Source of the DNA: Planctomycetota bacterium
GTDB lineage: Bacteria; Planctomycetota; UBA1135; UBA2386
DNA length: 64,000 nt
Assembly: GCA_965223545.1 (NCBI GenBank)
Contig: OZ245006.1
Location: forward strand, 4,448,001 to 4,512,000
Reading direction: 5' to 3'
A program made the position numbers and the translations under genes. Shown in pieces: positions 53,935 to 62,192 of the stretch. Below the pieces are notes generated by a model. It saw only the letters and a program-made list of their open reading frames with translations. It did not search any database and was not told the origin of the DNA. Numbering within the stretch: the first letter of the stretch is position 1; each line of letters opens with the position of its first letter.

Positions 53935-56900
53935 TCACACCTCGGAGGGTTGGTGCTCGATCGCGATCTGCTTGATCGCGCGCAGGTCGAGCTTGCCGGT
54001 GCCGAGGATCGGCAGCGCCTCGACCTGCACGAAGTCGTCGGCCTTGGGCACGAACAAGTTGGGCAGACCGGCGGCGCCGAGGTCTTGCAGCACGGTCGGG
54101 ATCTCCCGCGCCGCCAATGTGTGCAGCACGACGAGTTTCTCGCCCTTGCGCGCGTCGGGCACGCCGGTCACCGCGAAGGTCGGCTCGGTGCGTCCGGCGG
54201 CCTCGTGCAGGGCGGTCTCGACCGTGCCGTGCGGCACCATCTCGCCGCCGATCTTCGAGAACCGCGACAGCCGATCGCCGATGTGCACGTAGCCGTCGTC
54301 GTCGACGTGGGCGAGGTCGCCGGTCACGTACCAGCCCTCGCGCAGCACTTGTGCAGTGAGGTCGGGCCGGCCGAGGTAGCCGCGCATGACGTTGGGGCCG
54401 CGCACCAACAGGAGGCCGGTCTCGCCCGGAGGCAGCGCTGCGTGGCTGTCCGGATCGACGACGCGCACGGTGATGCCGGGCAGGGGTTGGCCCACGGACC
54501 CCGGCCGCTGGCCCGCTTGAAAGACGCCGGGGGCGCGGTAGTCCGGTGCGCCGACCGCGATCACCGGCGAGCACTCGGTCGCGCCGTAGCCCTCGAGCGG
54601 GCGGATGCCGAAGCGCTGCTCGAACGCGGTGGCCAAGCGGTCCGGCAGCTTTTCGGCGCCGGTGATCAGCAGCCGGATCGAGCCGAGCTGTCCGGGCTGG
54701 CAGCGGCGCAGATACAGCTGCAAGAACGTCGGCGTCGCCAGCATCGTCGTCACGCGGTAGCGCTCGATCAGCGCCCCGATCGCGGTCGCGTCGAGCGGGT
54801 TGGCGTGGAACACCAGCGCCATGCCGCGCCGCAGCGCGAACCACAAGCTCATCTTGCCGAAGGAGTGGAACAGCGGCAGGATGCCGAGCAGTCGGTCACC
54901 GCTGGAGACGGGCAGCGACTCGGCCGTGCCATCACCGTTGGCCACCAAGTTGAAGTGCGTCAGCTCGACGCCCTTGGGCTCGCCGGTGCTGCCGCTCGAG
55001 AACAGGACTGCGGCGACGTCGTCGACTTCGACCTTTCGCTCCGCGCCACAGGCGCGTTCGAGCCAGCGCACCGGGGCGAACATCGCCAGCAGCGCCGCGA
55101 AGAGCTTGTTGCCCTTGCCGATCGAGGCGGCGAGATCCTCCGCCATCAGCAGTCGGGCACCGCCTTGGAGCTCGATCTTGGCGAGCTCCAAGAAGCGCGC
55201 ACTGGTGACGATCGTGTCGAGCTCGGCTTGGCGGATGGCGGAGGCGATCGCGGCCGGGCCGGCGGTGTAGTTGAGGTTGACGGCCGTGCGGCCGGCGAGG
55301 GCGGCGGCGATGTTGGTGGCAGCGCCGGCCACGCTCGGTGGTAGCAAGATGCCGACCCGTTCGCTGTTGCCCCAGTCCGACCGCAGCCGTCGGGCGAGGG
55401 CGACCGCTGCCGTGAGCAGGCCGAAGCGCGACACGGAGGGGCGGGTGGCGTCGGCCGCGGCGAGCTTCCACGGCGCCCGGCGCGCACCGCGGACGAACGC
55501 GACGTGCAGCGGTGCGGCGTTGGCCGCGCGCTCCGCCCACGCGTCGGCGGACAAGTCGCGCACCGCCTCGCGCACCGCGCGGCGGTCGCTGTCCGCGCGC
55601 ATCGGCGCGCCGAAGCACACGGTCACCGGCCGCGGCAGGCGCGGAATGCCCCCGCCGCCGCGCTTGGCGGCGAAGCTGAAGACGCTGCCCCACACGCGGT
55701 CGAGGTACAGCGGCACGATCGGCACGTCGCGGCCCTTGACCAGCCGCTCCAGCCCGCGCTGGAACGGCAGCATGCGGCCGGTGCGACTGATCTCGCCCTC
55801 GGCAAAGATGCACACCAGCTCACCGTCGTCGAGGTGCTTGCCGGCGTCCCGCATGGACTGCAGCAAGGCCCGCGGGCTGTCGCCCGCCGCGATCGGCACC
55901 GCGCGCAGCAGCCGCATGAACGGGTGCAGCCAACGGTGGTAGTAGTAGTCCGAGTAGACCAAGAAGCGGATCGGCCGGTGCGTGCTCGCCATGAGCAGCA
56001 GACCGTCGACGAAGGACATGTGGTTGGCGACCAGGAGTCCGCCGCCTTCGGCGGGCACGTTCTCCGCGCCGCGGACCCGCACGCGGTAGAGGGTCGCGCT
56101 CAGCAGAGTGAGCGCGGTGCGCAGACAGGCCTCCGGCAACAGCCATAGCGCCCACGCCGTCGCGGCGGCGACCACCACGGCGGCGGCGGTGAAGATCCCG
56201 GCCGGAGTGAGGCCGAGCATGGTGAACAGCTGCGCTCCCAGCGAGCCGGCGAGGATGCCACCGAAGATCGCACCGTTGGCGACCGCGATCACCGCGCCGC
56301 GCACGCCGGCGGGGGAGAAGAGCTGCAGGGCGGTGTTGAGTGGCACGACGATCAGGCCGCTGCACACGCCGAGCGCGCCCAGCCACGCCGCGGTACCCCA
56401 CGCGCCGGGAGCATACAGACCGAGCACCGCCGAGGCGGCGGCGAGGCCGATGCTGCCCAGCGGGATCCAGCCGAGGTCGAGGCCGCTGCGCGACAGCCGC
56501 CCGACGAGGGCGCTGCCGATGCCGATGCCGACGCCGGAGGCCACCAACAGCTGGCCGGCATGCGACTCGGAGAGGCCGAGGGTCGCGCGGCCGTAGACCA
56601 GGGCGTTTTGGCTGACCAAGCTGGCGATGCCCCAGAAGAGCACCGATCCCGCCACCGTCAGCCGCAGCGTGCGGTCGCGCCAGATCGTGGCAAAGCCATC
56701 GCGACACGCGGTGACCAAGGAGGCGTCGGGGCGCGCTGGCGCGACCCGCGGCACGAACTGGATGGCGACCAGGCCGACCAGCGCCAGCCCGGTCAGCACC
56801 GCGCCGGCGACCCAGGGCTGCGCGCCCGACTGCTCGAGCAGCATGCCACCCGCGGCGGTGCCGAGGATGATCGCCAAGAACGTCCACAGCTCGAGGACGC

Positions 56901-57354
56901 CGTTGCCGGCGGTCAGCCGTTTTGCCGGCAGGATCTCCGGCAGGATGCTGTACTTGGCGGGGCTGAACAGCGCGCTCTGCGCACCCATCGCCGCCAGCAC
57001 GATCAGCCCGAGCACCCCGCCCTCCGGCTGCAGCCAGAGGGCCGCGGTGCCGGCCGCCATCAGCAGCACCTCGGCGCCCTTGGTCGCGACCAGCACGCTG
57101 CGCTTGCTGAACCGGTCGGCGATCCAAGCCGCGGGCAGCGAGAACAGCATCAGCGGCAGGGTGAACACGACGAACGCCAACGTGGTCTGCGCCTGGGAGG
57201 CAATTTCGAGCTGGAGCGTTCCCTCGCCCAGCTGGCCGGCCAGCGTGCGGATCGCCAGCAACGCCATCAGCAGCTTGATGGCGTTGTCGTTGAACGCGCC
57301 GAAGAACTGAGCGATCAGCAGCCCCGCCAGATTGGCCTTGCCTGGATTGTTCAT
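53935..57354 (-). CDS. aas: Aas-like fusion: MFS transporter, acyltransferase and acyl-ACP synthetase
   Basis: QFFGAFNDN MFS start, NHMSFVD and FAEG acyltransferase motifs, FSSGSTGEPKGV, EGYGATE, SRFSKIGGEMV. ATG start at 57354. Confidence 0.92.
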   Translation of the reverse strand: MNNPGKANLAGLLIAQFFGAFNDNAIKLLMALLAIRTLAGQLGEGTLQLEIASQAQTTLAFVVFTLPLMLFSLPAAWIADRFSKRSVLVATKGAEVLLMAAGTAALWLQPEGGVLGLIVLAAMGAQSALFSPAKYSILPEILPAKRLTAGNGVLELWTFLAIILGTAAGGMLLEQSGAQPWVAGAVLTGLALVGLVAIQFVPRVAPARPDASLVTACRDGFATIWRDRTLRLTVAGSVLFWGIASLVSQNALVYGRATLGLSESHAGQLLVASGVGIGIGSALVGRLSRSGLDLGWIPLGSIGLAAASAVLGLYAPGAWGTAAWLGALGVCSGLIVVPLNTALQLFSPAGVRGAVIAVANGAIFGGILAGSLGAQLFTMLGLTPAGIFTAAAVVVAAATAWALWLLPEACLRTALTLLSATLYRVRVRGAENVPAEGGGLLVANHMSFVDGLLLMASTHRPIRFLVYSDYYYHRWLHPFMRLLRAVPIAAGDSPRALLQSMRDAGKHLDDGELVCIFAEGEISRTGRMLPFQRGLERLVKGRDVPIVPLYLDRVWGSVFSFAAKRGGGGIPRLPRPVTVCFGAPMRADSDRRAVREAVRDLSADAWAERAANAAPLHVAFVRGARRAPWKLAAADATRPSVSRFGLLTAAVALARRLRSDWGNSERVGILLPPSVAGAATNIAAALAGRTAVNLNYTAGPAAIASAIRQAELDTIVTSARFLELAKIELQGGARLLMAEDLAASIGKGNKLFAALLAMFAPVRWLERACGAERKVEVDDVAAVLFSSGSTGEPKGVELTHFNLVANGDGTAESLPVSSGDRLLGILPLFHSFGKMSLWFALRRGMALVFHANPLDATAIGALIERYRVTTMLATPTFLQLYLRRCQPGQLGSIRLLITGAEKLPDRLATAFEQRFGIRPLEGYGATECSPVIAVGAPDYRAPGVFQAGQRPGSVGQPLPGITVRVVDPDSHAALPPGETGLLLVRGPNVMRGYLGRPDLTAQVLREGWYVTGDLAHVDDDGYVHIGDRLSRFSKIGGEMVPHGTVETALHEAAGRTEPTFAVTGVPDARKGEKLVVLHTLAAREIPTVLQDLGAAGLPNLFVPKADDFVQVEALPILGTGKLDLRAIKQIAIEHQPSEV

Positions 57355-57566: not shown

Positions 57567-58445
57567 ATGATTCAGCTCCATCGTCTCGAAGGCTTCTTCT
57601 GGGTCGCGAAGACCGGCGGCTACGCGCGCGCGGCCCGCGCGTTTCCGTACCCGATCACGCAGCCGGCGGTGCACCAGCAGGTGCGCAAGCTCGAGGACGA
57701 GCTGGGTCTCGAGCTGTTCGAGCGCGTCGCCAAGGACCGCGTGCGGCCGACGCCGGCCGGCCGCGCGCTGATGCAGTTCGTGCAGCCGTTCTTCGAGGGG
57801 CTGCCCGCCGCGCTGCGTGCCGTGCGCGCCGGCGCCGGCGCCGGCGAGCTCGTGGTCTACTGCGAGCCGCTGCTGTTGCGGTTGTTGCTGCCGCGCTGGA
57901 TCAAGCGGATGCAGCGGCGCGCGCCCGACACCTGCATCGACCTGCACGAGCTGCGGGAGATCGACGTTTCGCTGTTGCGCCGCGGCGACGCCGATCTCTT
58001 GGTGTGCTATTTGCCCGAGGTTCCCGACGACATCGCCACGCAGGTGGTGGCCACGCTGCGGCCGTTCTTGGTGGTCTCGGCGGATCACCCGCGCGCCGCC
58101 AACAAGCGGCTGCGGCCGAAGGACCTCGCCGGCGAGCCGTTCGTCGCCTACAACCGAGGCACGGTCGAGCACGACCTGCAGATGGGGGCGCTGGCGGAGT
58201 TCGGCGTGCGGCCCGAGCGGCTCCTGTTCGCCAGCAGCGCCGACGCGATTCTCGGCTTCGTCGCCAGCGGGCTCGGCTACTCGCTGGTGCCGCACCTCTC
58301 GGCGGAAGAGCTGCAGTCGTCCGGGGTGTCGGCGCGCCCGCTGTCCCGGCCCAAGATCGAGTTTCCGATCAGTGCCGCGTGGCGCCGCGACGCGCCGGAG
58401 AACGCGGCGCTCGACTTGGCGCTGGAGACCGCTCCCGGCCGGTAG
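57567..58445 (+). CDS. LysR family transcriptional regulator
   Basis: GGYARAA...ITQPAVHQQVRKLEDELGLELFER HTH. Confidence 0.92.
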   Translation: MIQLHRLEGFFWVAKTGGYARAARAFPYPITQPAVHQQVRKLEDELGLELFERVAKDRVRPTPAGRALMQFVQPFFEGLPAALRAVRAGAGAGELVVYCEPLLLRLLLPRWIKRMQRRAPDTCIDLHELREIDVSLLRRGDADLLVCYLPEVPDDIATQVVATLRPFLVVSADHPRAANKRLRPKDLAGEPFVAYNRGTVEHDLQMGALAEFGVRPERLLFASSADAILGFVASGLGYSLVPHLSAEELQSSGVSARPLSRPKIEFPISAAWRRDAPENAALDLALETAPGR

Positions 58446-58535
58446 ACCCGATTCCGGGGTTTTTCGTGACGCCCTGACACGACCGCGGGTGGAACGCCTG
58501 AAACGGACGCAACCGTCCCCGACCAGGAGTGACCC

Positions 58536-59033
58536 GTGCCAGCCAGCCAACAACCGCATGCCATCGCCGACGGCCCGCCGTGGGCCGCCCCTGCCGAGTT
58601 CGTCGTGCGCAACAGCGGCGACGGACGCGAGCAAGGGGTCTTCGCCGCGCGGTCCTTCTCCCGTTCCAGTCTGGTGGCGAGGATCTCCGGCGTCGTCGTG
58701 CATGCCCGCGGGCTCCACACGCTGCAGATGGGCGAAGGGCTGCACATGTACGACATGGACTTCGCCGGTCTGCTGCTGCACTCGTGCGCACCGAACGTCC
58801 ACGTCGACATGCAGCGCCTCGAGGTCTGGGCCCTGCGGGACATCCGGCCGGGAGAGGCACTGTGCATGGACTACACGACGACCGAGGACGTGCTGCATCG
58901 GCAGTTCCCGTGTCTGTGCGGCGCGCCGGCCTGCCGCCGGTGGATCACCGGCTATAGGGAGCCGATCAATGGCGAGGGTCTGCGCTACCTGCAAGGTGGC
59001 AACCGGGACGGCGCGCTGCGCGATGTGGTGTGA
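58536..59033 (+). CDS. SET-domain methyltransferase (BurB-like candidate Met S-methyltransferase)
   Basis: GVFAAR, LHSCAPN, ALRDIRPGEALCMDY, post-SET CLCGAPACR. AGGAG RBS. Confidence 0.8.
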   Translation: MPASQQPHAIADGPPWAAPAEFVVRNSGDGREQGVFAARSFSRSSLVARISGVVVHARGLHTLQMGEGLHMYDMDFAGLLLHSCAPNVHVDMQRLEVWALRDIRPGEALCMDYTTTEDVLHRQFPCLCGAPACRRWITGYREPINGEGLRYLQGGNRDGALRDVV

Positions 59034-60280
59034 CGGGGATCGCCATGCTGAGCACTCGAACCGAACGCACCGTCGACCGCGCCTGGTGGGCGCGCAGCGA
59101 CCTCCATCACGACTCCGGCGAGCTCTCGTTCGCGGGTCGACGCGTCGCGGACTTGGCGCGATCGGTGGGCACGCCCGCGTTCTTCTACAGCACCCAACGC
59201 GTCGAAGAGAACCTGAGGCGGTTGCACCGCGCGCTGGGTTCGGTGCACCGCCGCTGCCGCGTCTTCTACGCGATCAAGGCCAACCGCTACGCGCCGCTCT
59301 TGACGTGGATGAAGTCGACGGGGCTGTGTGGCGTGGACGTTTGCTCGCCGGGTGAGCTCCGGCACGCTCTGGCGGTCGGGTTTCGGCAAGACGAGATCTC
59401 CTACACTGCTTCCGGAATCGGCAGGGACGAGGTCGGGCTCCTCGGCGCCAACCCCGACGTGCTGGTCAATTGCGACGGGCTGGGCGCGCTGCGCCATCTC
59501 GGCGAGGCCTCCCCGGGGCGCGCGGTCGGCATTCGCATCAACCCGGCGCGCGGCACCGGCTACGGCACCAACCAAAAGCTCCGCTACAGCGGTCGGGCGA
59601 CCACCAAGTTCGGCATCTACCGAGACCAGTTCGACCAGGCGCTGCGCTGTGCCGAGCAGAGTGGCCTGGTGGTGCGGCGCATCCACCTGCATCTGGGTTG
59701 CGGCTACTTGGACGATCAGCTCGACGAGTGGGAGGCCGGCCTCGAGGCATGCCGGTGGTTCGTCGACCGGGTCCCGGGGCTGGAGGCGATCAACCTCGGC
59801 GGCGGGCTGGGAGTGCCGCACCGCGCCGGCGATCGGCCCCTGGACCTCGACCGCTGGGCCGGCGTCGTGCAGCGGTTCGTCGGTGGCCGCGACGTCGAGA
59901 TCCACGTCGAGCCCGGGGACTACGTCGTGAAGGACGCCGGCTTGCTCGGTGTTTCCGTCACCGCCGTGGAGCGCAAGCAGGAGACGGTGTTCGTCACCGT
60001 CGACGCCGGCTTCAACGTCGCCATCGAGCCCGCGTTCTACGGCCTGCCGTGCGAGCCCGTTGCCTGCTCGGCCGGCCCTGTGGCCGACCGCGTCACGATC
60101 GTCGGTCCGATCAACGAGGCGCTCGACGTCTGGGCCGCGGACGTGCCGATGCCTGGCGTCGCCGAGGGCGACGTCATCGCGCTGCTCAACTCTGGCGGCT
60201 ACGCCGCCTCGATGAGCTCCAACCACTGCCTGCGCGCGCGTGCTTGCCAATACCTGCTGTTCGCCGAGGCTCCGAGATGA
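59030..60280 (+). CDS. Fold-III PLP decarboxylase (LysA/DAPDC-like, substrate uncertain)
   Basis: FYAIKAN, S.GEL, TKFG, HLHLG, NLGGG, EPG, GGYAASMSS. INEALD replaces the usual CE(S/T)GD. Confidence 0.88.
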   Translation: MTGIAMLSTRTERTVDRAWWARSDLHHDSGELSFAGRRVADLARSVGTPAFFYSTQRVEENLRRLHRALGSVHRRCRVFYAIKANRYAPLLTWMKSTGLCGVDVCSPGELRHALAVGFRQDEISYTASGIGRDEVGLLGANPDVLVNCDGLGALRHLGEASPGRAVGIRINPARGTGYGTNQKLRYSGRATTKFGIYRDQFDQALRCAEQSGLVVRRIHLHLGCGYLDDQLDEWEAGLEACRWFVDRVPGLEAINLGGGLGVPHRAGDRPLDLDRWAGVVQRFVGGRDVEIHVEPGDYVVKDAGLLGVSVTAVERKQETVFVTVDAGFNVAIEPAFYGLPCEPVACSAGPVADRVTIVGPINEALDVWAADVPMPGVAEGDVIALLNSGGYAASMSSNHCLRARACQYLLFAEAPR

Positions 60281-61689
60281 CAGTGCTAGAACGCGACCCA
60301 CCGGGCGTGGCACGCCGGTGCGCGGACCACGAGATCGTCCGCCGCGACCTCTCCCACGTGCTCCACCCGTGGACCGACTTCTCCAGCCGGGACGACGCGC
60401 CGCTGGTCATCGTCAAGGGCGAGGGCTGTACGGTGGAGGACGCCAATGGCAACCGCTACCTCGACGCCATTGGCGGGATGTGGTGCGTCACCCTGGGCCA
60501 CGGGCGATCCGAGCTGGCCGACGCGATGGCGCAGCAGGCGAGGCAGCTCGCCTACTACACGCCGTTCGGAGCCATGGCCAACGCGCCGGCTGCCGAGCTC
60601 GCGGCCGAGCTGGCCGCCCTGGCTCCCGGCGACCTCAACCGCGTGCACTTCACCACCGGCGGTTCCACCGCGGTCGACTCGGCGATTCGGTTGGCGCACT
60701 ACTACTGGGCGAGCATCGGCCAACCCGCGCGGAAGCACATCATTTCGCGGTTGGACGCGTACCACGGCAGCACCTATCTGACGGCCTCGGTCAGCGGCAA
60801 GCAGTGCGACCGCACGCTCTTCCACTACGAGAGCGAGTTCGTGCACCACGTCAGCTCGCCGAATGCGTACTACCGGCGAGAGCATGCTTCGCCGGCAGAG
60901 CTGTGCGACGCGTTGGTCGCCGAGCTGGAGCAGAAGATCTTGGAGCTGGGTCCGGAGCGGGTGGCGTGCTTCATCGCCGAGCCCATCCTGGCGTCGGGCG
61001 GCGTGATCGTTCCACCGGTCGGCTACCAGCAACGCACGCAGGAGATCTGCCGCCGCTACGGCGTGCTCTACATCAGCGACGAGGTGGTGACCGGCTTCGG
61101 GCGGTTGGGGCACTTCTTCGCTTCCGAGCCCCGCTTCGGGGTCGTGCCGGACATGATCATCACCGCGAAGGGCCTGACGTCGGGCGCGATTCCGCTCGGC
61201 GCCTGCATCGTCTCCGACCGTATCCACGACACGATCGCGGCTGTCGACGATGGCATCTTCACCAACGGGTTCACCTACTCGGGCCACCCCGTGGCCTGCG
61301 CCGTGGCGCGCGCCAACATCGCGGTGATGCAGCGCGAGCGCATCTGCGAGCACGTGCGCGACGTCGGGCCTTACTTCATCCAGCGGCTCGAGGAGCTCCG
61401 GCGCTACGACATCGTCGGCGACGTGCGCGGCGATCATCTCATGGCGTGCATCGTCTGCGATGTCGACGGCCATCCGGACGCGGCCACCGCACGGGACATC
61501 GCGGTCGCCGGCCTGGTCGACGCCCATTGCCAGAAGCGAGGGCTCCTGGTGAGGCCCTACGAGAACTTGTGCATCCTGTCGCCCCCGCTCACCATCGATC
61601 GCGCGACCATCGATGCGATGGTGGATCTCCTGCACGCGTCGATCGCCGCGGCCGAGCGCGACCTCGGTGGCACGGCCCGGCCGAAATGA
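60277..61689 (+). CDS. Class III omega-amine aminotransferase
   Basis: YLDAIGGMWC..LGHG, AYHGS, FIAEP, DEVVTGFGR, AKGLTSG, GFTYSGHP. ATGA overlap with the decarboxylase stop. Confidence 0.92.
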   Translation: MTVLERDPPGVARRCADHEIVRRDLSHVLHPWTDFSSRDDAPLVIVKGEGCTVEDANGNRYLDAIGGMWCVTLGHGRSELADAMAQQARQLAYYTPFGAMANAPAAELAAELAALAPGDLNRVHFTTGGSTAVDSAIRLAHYYWASIGQPARKHIISRLDAYHGSTYLTASVSGKQCDRTLFHYESEFVHHVSSPNAYYRREHASPAELCDALVAELEQKILELGPERVACFIAEPILASGGVIVPPVGYQQRTQEICRRYGVLYISDEVVTGFGRLGHFFASEPRFGVVPDMIITAKGLTSGAIPLGACIVSDRIHDTIAAVDDGIFTNGFTYSGHPVACAVARANIAVMQRERICEHVRDVGPYFIQRLEELRRYDIVGDVRGDHLMACIVCDVDGHPDAATARDIAVAGLVDAHCQKRGLLVRPYENLCILSPPLTIDRATIDAMVDLLHASIAAAERDLGGTARPK

Positions 61690-61696
61690 CTCCGCC

Positions 61697-62089
61697 ATGA
61701 ACAGCAACGAACGCGTCGTCCGAGACTTCATCGCCGCGTGGTCGCGCTTGGACCACGACGAGCTCGCCGCCTACTTCACCGAAGATGGCGTCTACCACAA
61801 CATGCCGCTGGCCCCCGCGATCGGCCGCGACGCGGTCCGCGACCTGATCGAGAGCTTCACGTCGGGCTGGACCGGCACGACGTGGGAGGTGGTCAACGTC
61901 GCGGTTGCGGGCGACCTGGTCATCGCCGAACGGATCGACCACACCCGCGCGGTCGGCAGGTCGGTGGACTTGCCCTGCGTCGGCGTCTTCGAGTTGCAGG
62001 CGGGCAAGATCCGCTGCTGGCGCGACTACTTCGATCTCGACTCGTACCTGCGTGCGATGGAGCCGGCGAGCGACGCCCGCGTGCAGTGA
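61697..62089 (+). CDS. Limonene-1,2-epoxide hydrolase / SnoaL-like protein
   Basis: YHNMP, ERID, GVFE...GKI..WRDYFD. Confidence 0.88.
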   Translation: MNSNERVVRDFIAAWSRLDHDELAAYFTEDGVYHNMPLAPAIGRDAVRDLIESFTSGWTGTTWEVVNVAVAGDLVIAERIDHTRAVGRSVDLPCVGVFELQAGKIRCWRDYFDLDSYLRAMEPASDARVQ

Positions 62090-62192
62090 GGCGCAGTGAG
62101 GGGAGCACTTTTTTGGCTTCCCGCGTGACGCCGGCCACGGTGCTGCGGGTGTGGGGGCACCACTTCTTTTTTCAAACCGAACGAGCCGAACG

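What the first reader, a model, noticed from the sequence alone, without database searches (positions are those of the whole stretch)
58536..61689. Candidate methionine S-methylation (DMSP/sulfonium) operon: SET methyltransferase + decarboxylase + aminotransferase
Seen: three genes coupled by GTGA/ATGA overlaps downstream of a LysR gene: a stand-alone SET/post-SET protein, a LysA-like decarboxylase and an omega-amine transaminase. Established: Burkholderia BurB (malleicyprol pathway) is a SET-domain enzyme that converts Met to S-methylmethionine, and bacterial methylation routes to DMSP (bur genes; MmtN pathway of Streptomyces mobaraensis) continue by decarboxylation, transamination and aldehyde oxidation. 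Inference: this operon encodes the first three steps in pathway order in a probable planctomycete, a group I do not know as BurB-type DMSP producers. No aldehyde dehydrogenase is in the window, so the end product may differ from DMSP.
Basis: partly seen in the sequence, partly recalled or inferred. Interest (0 to 1): 0.85.

Follow-up and report, generated by a model that had tools for sequence, protein, structure and literature searches.

The report
Planctomycete methionine-to-DMSP operon lacking last enzyme
An uncultured planctomycete carries the first three genes of the Burkholderia route from methionine to the climate-relevant sulfur compound DMSP, without the toxin assembly line, and the same core gene pair turns up in many other bacterial groups although the literature calls the key enzyme Burkholderia-only.

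Summary
Observation confirmed; reading largely supported. The three genes are orthologues of BurB (52%), BurI (53%) and BurD (60%) of a Burkholderiaceae bur cluster, each the single top hit in the genome. The SET protein matches the BurB structure at E 4e-42 against 3e-8 for histone SET enzymes. The decarboxylase has BurI motifs, not LysA motifs, and its clade also sits beside the unrelated methionine methylase MmtN. Neither this genome nor the one relative with the operon has a BurE-family aldehyde dehydrogenase over cut-off, and this genome has no BurA-type loader. Most likely product: DMSP through a borrowed dehydrogenase (about 0.55); otherwise DMSP-aldehyde decaying to DMS. BurB plus BurI are adjacent in 54 of 80 genome loci from several phyla, while three papers call BurB Burkholderia-only. 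This scan noted BurB-BurI pairs before on three other genomes. No activity was measured.

The parts
57567..58445 (+). LysR-family regulator; upstream neighbour, link to the operon unsupported
   Evidence: Pfam PF00126+PF03466; best match in G009 only 28% identical and not at the operon
58466..58491 (+). Bipartite promoter-like motif GTGAC-N14-GCGGGTG, possibly for an ECF sigma factor (inferred)
   Evidence: Same motif and spacing upstream of the operon in L022. Relaxed pattern at this spacing: 6 of 29 genome matches lie upstream of a same-strand gene, against 0-2 at seven other spacings. The motif was defined from these sites, so the test is partly post hoc.
58536..59033 (+). BurB-type SET/post-SET methyltransferase; predicted L-Met S-methyltransferase (Met + SAM to SMM)
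   Evidence: PDB 9L4T BurB E 4.2e-42, next hit 3.4e-8; 51.7% over 145 aa to the BurB of the fetched bur cluster; R42, H72, T73, H93, Y124, V130, R133 and three post-SET cysteines kept
59030..60280 (+). BurI-type PLP fold-III decarboxylase; predicted SMM decarboxylase (to DMSP-amine)
   Evidence: 52.8% over 400 aa to BurI; below LysA cut-off, 217.8 vs 297.9 bits, as is BurI at 196.4; BurI-clade motifs and tree
60277..61689 (+). BurD-type class III aminotransferase (PRK07036); predicted DMSP-amine transaminase (to DMSP-aldehyde)
   Evidence: 60.3% over 448 aa to BurD; over NF005447 cut-off, 700.7 vs 618, as is BurD at 789.9; clade of six pathway-linked enzymes, SH-aLRT 100
61697..62089 (+). Limonene-1,2-epoxide hydrolase-family protein with the YxN, RxD and WRDYFD motifs; fourth gene of the block, role unknown
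   Evidence: PF07858; PDB LEH E 1.6e-22; 80% identical at the same position in L022; 2 of 91 family genomes, the same two; no SET or decarboxylase hit in 80 metagenome loci of 51-65% homologues

Best explanation
A free-standing methionine methylation route to a dimethylsulfonium C3 compound. The SET enzyme methylates the sulfur of L-Met with SAM to give S-methylmethionine; the fold-III PLP enzyme decarboxylates it to DMSP-amine; the class III transaminase gives DMSP-aldehyde. An unlinked, broad-specificity aldehyde dehydrogenase (best candidate G000:C1:3407936-3409384) then oxidises this to DMSP, kept as a free solute rather than loaded on an NRPS-PKS. Shown here: orthology, gene order, coupling, motifs, absence of BurE- and BurA-type genes. 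Inferred: every activity. My odds: about 0.85 for the three steps, about 0.55 for DMSP as main end product. The epoxide-hydrolase-like gene is most likely a passenger.
For: Orthology of all three genes to one bur cluster with the gene order of the published pathway, each the unique top hit in G000. BurB activity on Met and the roles of BurI, BurD, BurE are published (PMC12542666; PMC7496086). Decarboxylase motifs INEALD, HxGCGYL, EPGD, SxHCxR are shared with BurI and differ from the genome's own LysA-like protein (VCETGD, HxGSQ, EPGR). The same decarboxylase clade lies next to an MmtN homologue on two of four plasmid hits, so two unrelated Met methylases share it. SET-decarboxylase fusions exist (P0028, P0262, P0275, P0276, P0082, P0032). 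Complete four-gene sets without NRPS occur in Thiorhodococcus (L026, L034) and Desulfobacula (L049). burD and burE knock-outs still made product, possibly through housekeeping enzymes (PMC7496086); plant aldehyde dehydrogenases oxidise DMSP-aldehyde promiscuously (PMC11464771); the Rhodovulum MmtN cluster uses a non-BurE dehydrogenase (36% to BurE), 49% identical over 340 aa to the G000 candidate.
Against: No assay and no expression data. No BurE-family member over cut-off in G000 (best 491.9 of 615 bits) or G009 (448.2), whereas the three control genomes pass. The candidate dehydrogenase is about 1.1 Mb away and passes no NCBIfam cut-off. BurB binds Met through main-chain atoms, so residue conservation cannot prove the substrate; five of 15 checked positions differ (A44Q, R70G, S88A, M132H, H138L). 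In the SET tree the protein branches deeply within the BurB group, with support 88 and a long-branch warning. All trees are quick trees. BurB-like proteins also occur without BurI in 26 of 80 loci.
Confidence: 0.6

Rival explanations
1. Same three steps, but the route ends at DMSP-aldehyde, which breaks down to DMS (and, by beta-elimination chemistry, acrolein; recalled). The operon is then a direct DMS source, and the epoxide-hydrolase-like protein, sitting where BurE sits in the Desulfobacula cassette, may act on the aldehyde or its breakdown product.
For: No BurE orthologue in either genome. DMSP-aldehyde decays to DMS with a half-life of about 1 h (PMC11464771). The fourth gene is the most conserved of the four (80% vs 65-76%), occurs in the same 2 of 91 family genomes and stays with the block while both flanks differ.
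Against: Two related genomes may be one event. Homologues at 51-65% show no SET or decarboxylase neighbour in 80 of 80 metagenome loci, many of them short. The protein keeps ordinary epoxide-hydrolase motifs. G000 has nine aldehyde-dehydrogenase-family matches.
Confidence: 0.17
2. The working product is DMSP-amine, a sulfonium analogue of a diamine, made by the conserved two-gene core; the transaminase only recycles nitrogen or degrades excess.
For: 50 of the 54 loci with the BurB-BurI pair have no BurD within the fetched DNA (12 of the 54 have under 1.6 kb after the decarboxylase); fusions join only these two enzymes.
Against: Here the BurD orthologue is coupled by an ATGA overlap and groups with transaminases of complete pathways. 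Housekeeping enzymes can replace BurD (PMC7496086), so two-gene cassettes may still give DMSP.
Confidence: 0.13
3. The SET enzyme methylates a different small substrate (another thioether or selenoether amino acid, or a lysine), and the downstream enzymes process that product.
For: Deep branch in the SET tree; substitutions near the pocket; the decarboxylase has GPINE where the rest of the clade has G[NH]INE.
Against: All three genes match bur orthologues at 52-60% at once; S88A keeps over 60% activity in BurB and R70, M132 bind by main chain (PMC12542666).
Confidence: 0.07
4. The operon supplies DMSP as starter unit to an unlinked NRPS-PKS, as in malleicyprol synthesis.
For: G000 has many NRPS/PKS genes.
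Against: The 12 NRPS-type adenylation domains among 16 BurA-A hits all keep the FD motif that BurA-A lacks, at 29-35% identity; the BurG hit is a 35% generic match and BurC hits are 29-31%.
Confidence: 0.03

Closest known systems
BurB-BurI-BurD-BurE of the Burkholderia thailandensis bur (malleicyprol) cluster (PMC7496086; PDB 9L4T/9L4V, PMC12542666)
   Same: Orthologues of BurB, BurI and BurD at 52, 53 and 60% (compared with the cluster of genome G231).
   Different: No BurE orthologue, no BurA/F/G assembly line; the three genes are contiguous in pathway order; an epoxide-hydrolase-family gene follows; host is a planctomycete.
MmtN-type bacterial methylation pathway (Streptomyces mobaraensis, Novosphingobium; PMC9135737 passages; PDB 7VVV)
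   Same: Same decarboxylase and transaminase clades (Rhodovulum P5 plasmid: 54% and 64%); often free of an NRPS.
   Different: The methylase is a SET protein, not a class I MmtN; no MmtN hit in G000; no linked dehydrogenase.
Free-standing four-gene sets in Thiorhodococcus minor, T. drewsii and a Desulfobacula MAG (L026, L034, L049; found here, not found in the papers searched)
   Same: SET, BurI-type, BurD-type genes adjacent, no NRPS within the fetched 10 kb flanks.
   Different: They end in a BurE-type dehydrogenase (51-56% to BurE).
Diaminopimelate decarboxylase LysA (database name of these proteins)
   Same: Fold, PLP lysine, 25-30% level similarity.
   Different: Below TIGR01048 cut-off; lacks the CE active-site motif; a LysA-like gene with canonical motifs lies at G000:C1:6991850.

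Membership tests
BurB (SET-type Met S-methyltransferase) | Small stand-alone SET/post-SET protein closest to BurB rather than histone SET enzymes | tested here: met
   E 4.2e-42 vs 3.4e-8; 52% to BurB, 39% or less by tblastn to 18 other short SET proteins of relatives
BurB (SET-type Met S-methyltransferase) | SAM- and Met-site residues of the crystal structures | tested here: met
   10 of 15 positions identical, including H72, H93, Y124, R133; differences mostly at main-chain or variable positions
BurB (SET-type Met S-methyltransferase) | One clade with BurB | tested here: inconclusive
   41-row group with BurB on a long stem, SH-aLRT 88, long-branch warning, quick tree of 50 selected rows
BurB (SET-type Met S-methyltransferase) | Met + SAM to SMM activity | not testable with these tools
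   needs assay
BurI (SMM decarboxylase) | Fold-III enzyme in the BurI clade with its motifs | tested here: met
   47-row clade, SH-aLRT 98, quick tree; motifs; 53%
BurI (SMM decarboxylase) | SMM to DMSP-amine activity | not testable with these tools
   needs assay
BurD (DMSP-amine transaminase) | PRK07036 family and clade with BurD | tested here: met
Complete bur-type DMSP pathway | BurE-type (PRK13473) aldehyde dehydrogenase | tested here: not met
   none over cut-off in G000 (91% complete) or G009 (90%); 3 of 3 controls pass
bur/malleicyprol cluster | BurA NRPS-PKS with DMSP-loading adenylation domain, BurG | tested here: not met
LysA | TIGR01048 cut-off and CE motif | tested here: not met
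   217.8 vs 297.9 bits; GPINE in place of GPxCE
Limonene-1,2-epoxide hydrolase | Tyr/Asn water site and Asp-Arg-Asp triad (roles recalled) | tested here: met
   motifs aligned to PDB LEH; activity not tested

The most novel reading that the evidence does not exclude
The BurB-BurI pair is a widespread, overlooked sulfonium route in sediment, soil and freshwater bacteria that DMSP gene surveys miss, and these two planctomycetes run a version without the dehydrogenase in which an epoxide-hydrolase-fold protein acts on the sulfonium aldehyde or amine, releasing DMS straight from methionine.
Probability: 0.12. Interest if true: 0.85.

Novelty: new variant of a known kind. Interest (0 to 1): 0.57.

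Why it matters
DMSP and DMS are major terms in the sulfur cycle, and producers are predicted from marker genes. Three papers state that BurB is confined to Burkholderia and of minor environmental weight (PMC9135737, PMC10989797, PMC13360808). Here BurB-type genes with a BurI partner appear in records labelled Planctomycetota, Thermodesulfobacteriota, Alpha- and Gammaproteobacteria, Myxococcota and Verrucomicrobiota, mostly annotated as lysine methyltransferase and diaminopimelate decarboxylase. If they work as predicted, anoxic-sediment and non-marine bacteria are missing from DMSP/DMS budgets. Cultured strains with complete sets (Thiorhodococcus) make this cheap to test. The enzymes and chemistry themselves are known.

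Tried and rejected
LysR as operon regulator: not linked in G009; unsupported. Lysine biosynthesis and histone-type methylation: rejected. NRPS starter-unit role: the locus near C1:6.09-6.11 Mb with TauD-like and adenylation genes was inspected and has ordinary FD-type domains. Sigma-70 promoter scan found 0 sites and no terminator between the four genes' neighbours above chance (3 found, 1.9 expected). DMSP lyase family PF16867: 0 of 2 genomes; other lyase families not searched. Sequencing runs: no RNA holder listed; laying four runs gave only scattered short pieces and nothing on habitat or expression. The careful decarboxylase tree did not finish; the quick tree was used. A search for DMSP-aldehyde with acrolein found 0 papers. 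Five Burkholderiaceae genomes were not scored, so its tally (12 of 396) is a floor. No structure prediction or complex prediction was run. The B. thailandensis and S. mobaraensis proteins themselves were not available as stored sequences; G231 orthologues stood in.

Full report
Observation. The three genes are at the stated place: SET 58536-59033, decarboxylase 59030-60280 and aminotransferase 60277-61689, joined by GTGA and ATGA overlaps. A LysR gene precedes them and a 130-aa epoxide-hydrolase-family gene follows 7 nt later. GC content matches the genome (0.67-0.72 vs 0.70). The genome G000 is 8.1 Mb in two contigs, 91% complete.

Host and spread among kin. Of 60 relatives, 24 have some short SET match, but only G009 has a close one (67%). 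Its contig is the Planctomycetota record L022, with all four genes in the same order at 65, 70, 76 and 80% identity but different flanks and no LysR. The decarboxylase orthologue occurs in 2 of 339 genomes of the class and 2 of 401 in a phylum sample, both counts including G000. The block is rare in the phylum.

Identity of the enzymes. The SET protein hits the BurB structure at E 4.2e-42 and histone enzymes at 3.4e-8 or worse. From a Burkholderiaceae search (12 of 396 scored genomes matched) I took genome G231, whose region has the gene series of the bur cluster (gene letters assigned by order and family). The window's proteins are 51.7, 52.8 and 60.3% identical to its BurB, BurI and BurD, each the top hit in G000 by a wide margin. 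Ten of 15 BurB positions named in the structure paper or forming the post-SET motif are identical; S88A is tolerated in BurB and R70 and M132 bind by main chain. The decarboxylase shares INEALD, HxGCGYL and EPGD with BurI, in a 47-row clade with support 98, whereas the genome's LysA-like protein has VCETGD, HxGSQ and EPGR (quick tree of 61 rows). The aminotransferase passes the PRK07036 cut-off like BurD and groups with five other pathway-linked enzymes at support 100. The SET tree is weaker: support 88 with a long-branch warning (50 selected rows).

Independent support for the substrate. Two of four plasmid hits to the decarboxylase lie beside an MmtN homologue (PDB 7VVV, E 3.9e-105), a structurally unrelated methionine S-methyltransferase; one of the others lies beside a SET gene and one in a bur-like cluster. 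Six database proteins fuse the SET domain to this decarboxylase type.

What is missing. No PRK13473 (BurE) member passes cut-off in G000 or G009, while three control genomes do. BurE's best match in G000 is 42%, against 51-56% for the dehydrogenases linked to the Thiorhodococcus and Desulfobacula cassettes. No adenylation domain has the BurA-type loss of the FD motif. The gap is not fatal: burE knock-outs still make product (PMC7496086), plant dehydrogenases oxidise DMSP-aldehyde promiscuously (PMC11464771), and the Rhodovulum cluster uses a non-BurE enzyme that is 49% identical to G000:C1:3407936. If the aldehyde is not oxidised it decays to DMS in about an hour.

The fourth gene. It keeps ordinary epoxide-hydrolase motifs, is present in the same 2 of 91 family genomes, and sits where BurE sits in L049. 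But none of 80 metagenome loci with 51-65% homologues has a SET or decarboxylase hit, though 33 of them are 3 kb or shorter. Two related genomes may be one event, so a passenger is more likely than a recruited enzyme.

Wider picture. A scan of species genomes confirmed 136 BurB-like places and kept the best 80 (the seed pattern would miss BurB itself, so this is a biased floor). In 54 of 80 a BurI-type gene is adjacent; 4 of 80 also have BurD and 3 have BurE. The other 26 are 14 Pseudomonas loci, 10 loci with an ornithine-decarboxylase-like partner (one cut and not profiled), one Pandoraea locus with a Cys/Met lyase and one cut contig. Many records are MAGs and some labels may be binning errors (L047 and L048 are nearly identical across two phyla). 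The decarboxylase search gave 835 clusters at E 1e-60 or better among 8000 scored.

Literature. Read: PMC12542666 (parts 1-3 of 4, all main text), PMC7496086 (parts 1-2 of 3, all main text; supplement by term search), passages of PMC11306096, PMC9135737, PMC13360808, PMC10989797, PMC9359912 and PMC11464771. Liao and Seebeck 2019 was seen only as cited. Seven searches showed no paper on BurB outside Burkholderia or on this route in planctomycetes; most subscription papers are outside the library and most supplements were not seen. The 2026 review says BurB is reported exclusively in B. thailandensis. Earlier notes of this scan describe BurB-BurI pairs or fusions in three other genomes; they are unchecked, did not change my reading, and are not counted as support.

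Verdict. A real operon of known enzymes in a new host and arrangement: three steps of the BurB route with neither the dehydrogenase nor the toxin assembly line. Three steps about 0.85, DMSP as end product about 0.55. New variant of a known kind; interest 0.57, most of it from the unreported breadth of the BurB-BurI core.

Noticed in passing
L028:10001-11600 and L121-L125, L127-L132: In Pandoraea communis and ten further Burkholderiaceae genomes (11 of 12 hits) a BurB-like gene is coupled to a Cys/Met-metabolism PLP enzyme that passes no NCBIfam cut-off shown: a candidate two-step route Met to SMM to DMS.
   Followed up: partly
L051, L054, L056, L058, L060, L062, L075, L098; fusion in L093:8337-10007 and P0033: BurB-like genes paired with, or fused to, an ornithine-decarboxylase-like enzyme outside the BurI clade, mostly in Magnetospirillum-like bacteria; the Spartina SMM decarboxylase is compared with ornithine decarboxylases in PMC11464771.
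   Followed up: partly
L038:8560-10420 and 13 other Pseudomonas loci: BurB-like gene with no decarboxylase, always after a 389-aa gene with no Pfam or NCBIfam match at the thresholds used and before a convergent carbonic anhydrase.
   Followed up: no
L026:8645-13391, L034, L049:9783-14200: Complete NRPS-free four-gene DMSP sets in two cultured Thiorhodococcus species and a Desulfobacula MAG; in the latter, SAM synthetase and a homocysteine biosynthesis gene lie just upstream.
   Followed up: partly
window 58466-58491 and 62125-62151: GTGAC-N14/15-GCGGGTG motif before the operon and before the next gene; about seven upstream copies in the genome, several before genes that look secreted. Possible ECF sigma promoter.
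   Followed up: partly
L225 (Eleftheria terrae plasmid) and L228 (Rhizobium lusitanum plasmid): bur-like clusters outside Burkholderia: BurG, BurI, BurJ homologues at 68-73% in L225; an MmtN-based cluster with BurA- and BurG-like genes, some apparently frameshifted, in L228.
   Followed up: no
L226:6667-6933 and L228:6688-6942: A small 84-88 aa protein with an N-terminal IDCRGL motif sits between transaminase and decarboxylase in both MmtN-type clusters; TusA-like by recall; not seen in the window's operon.
   Followed up: no
P0020, P0021, P0098, P0069: BurB-like SET domains in other architectures: eight-repeat proteins of about 1450 aa, the C terminus of a 4765-aa NRPS-like protein, and a fusion to a GTP-cyclohydrolase-like domain (by recall).
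   Followed up: no
window 53935-57354 (-): MFS-acyltransferase-acyl-CoA synthetase fusion (Aas/LplT type by recall), divergent from the LysR; a possible LysR target.
   Followed up: no
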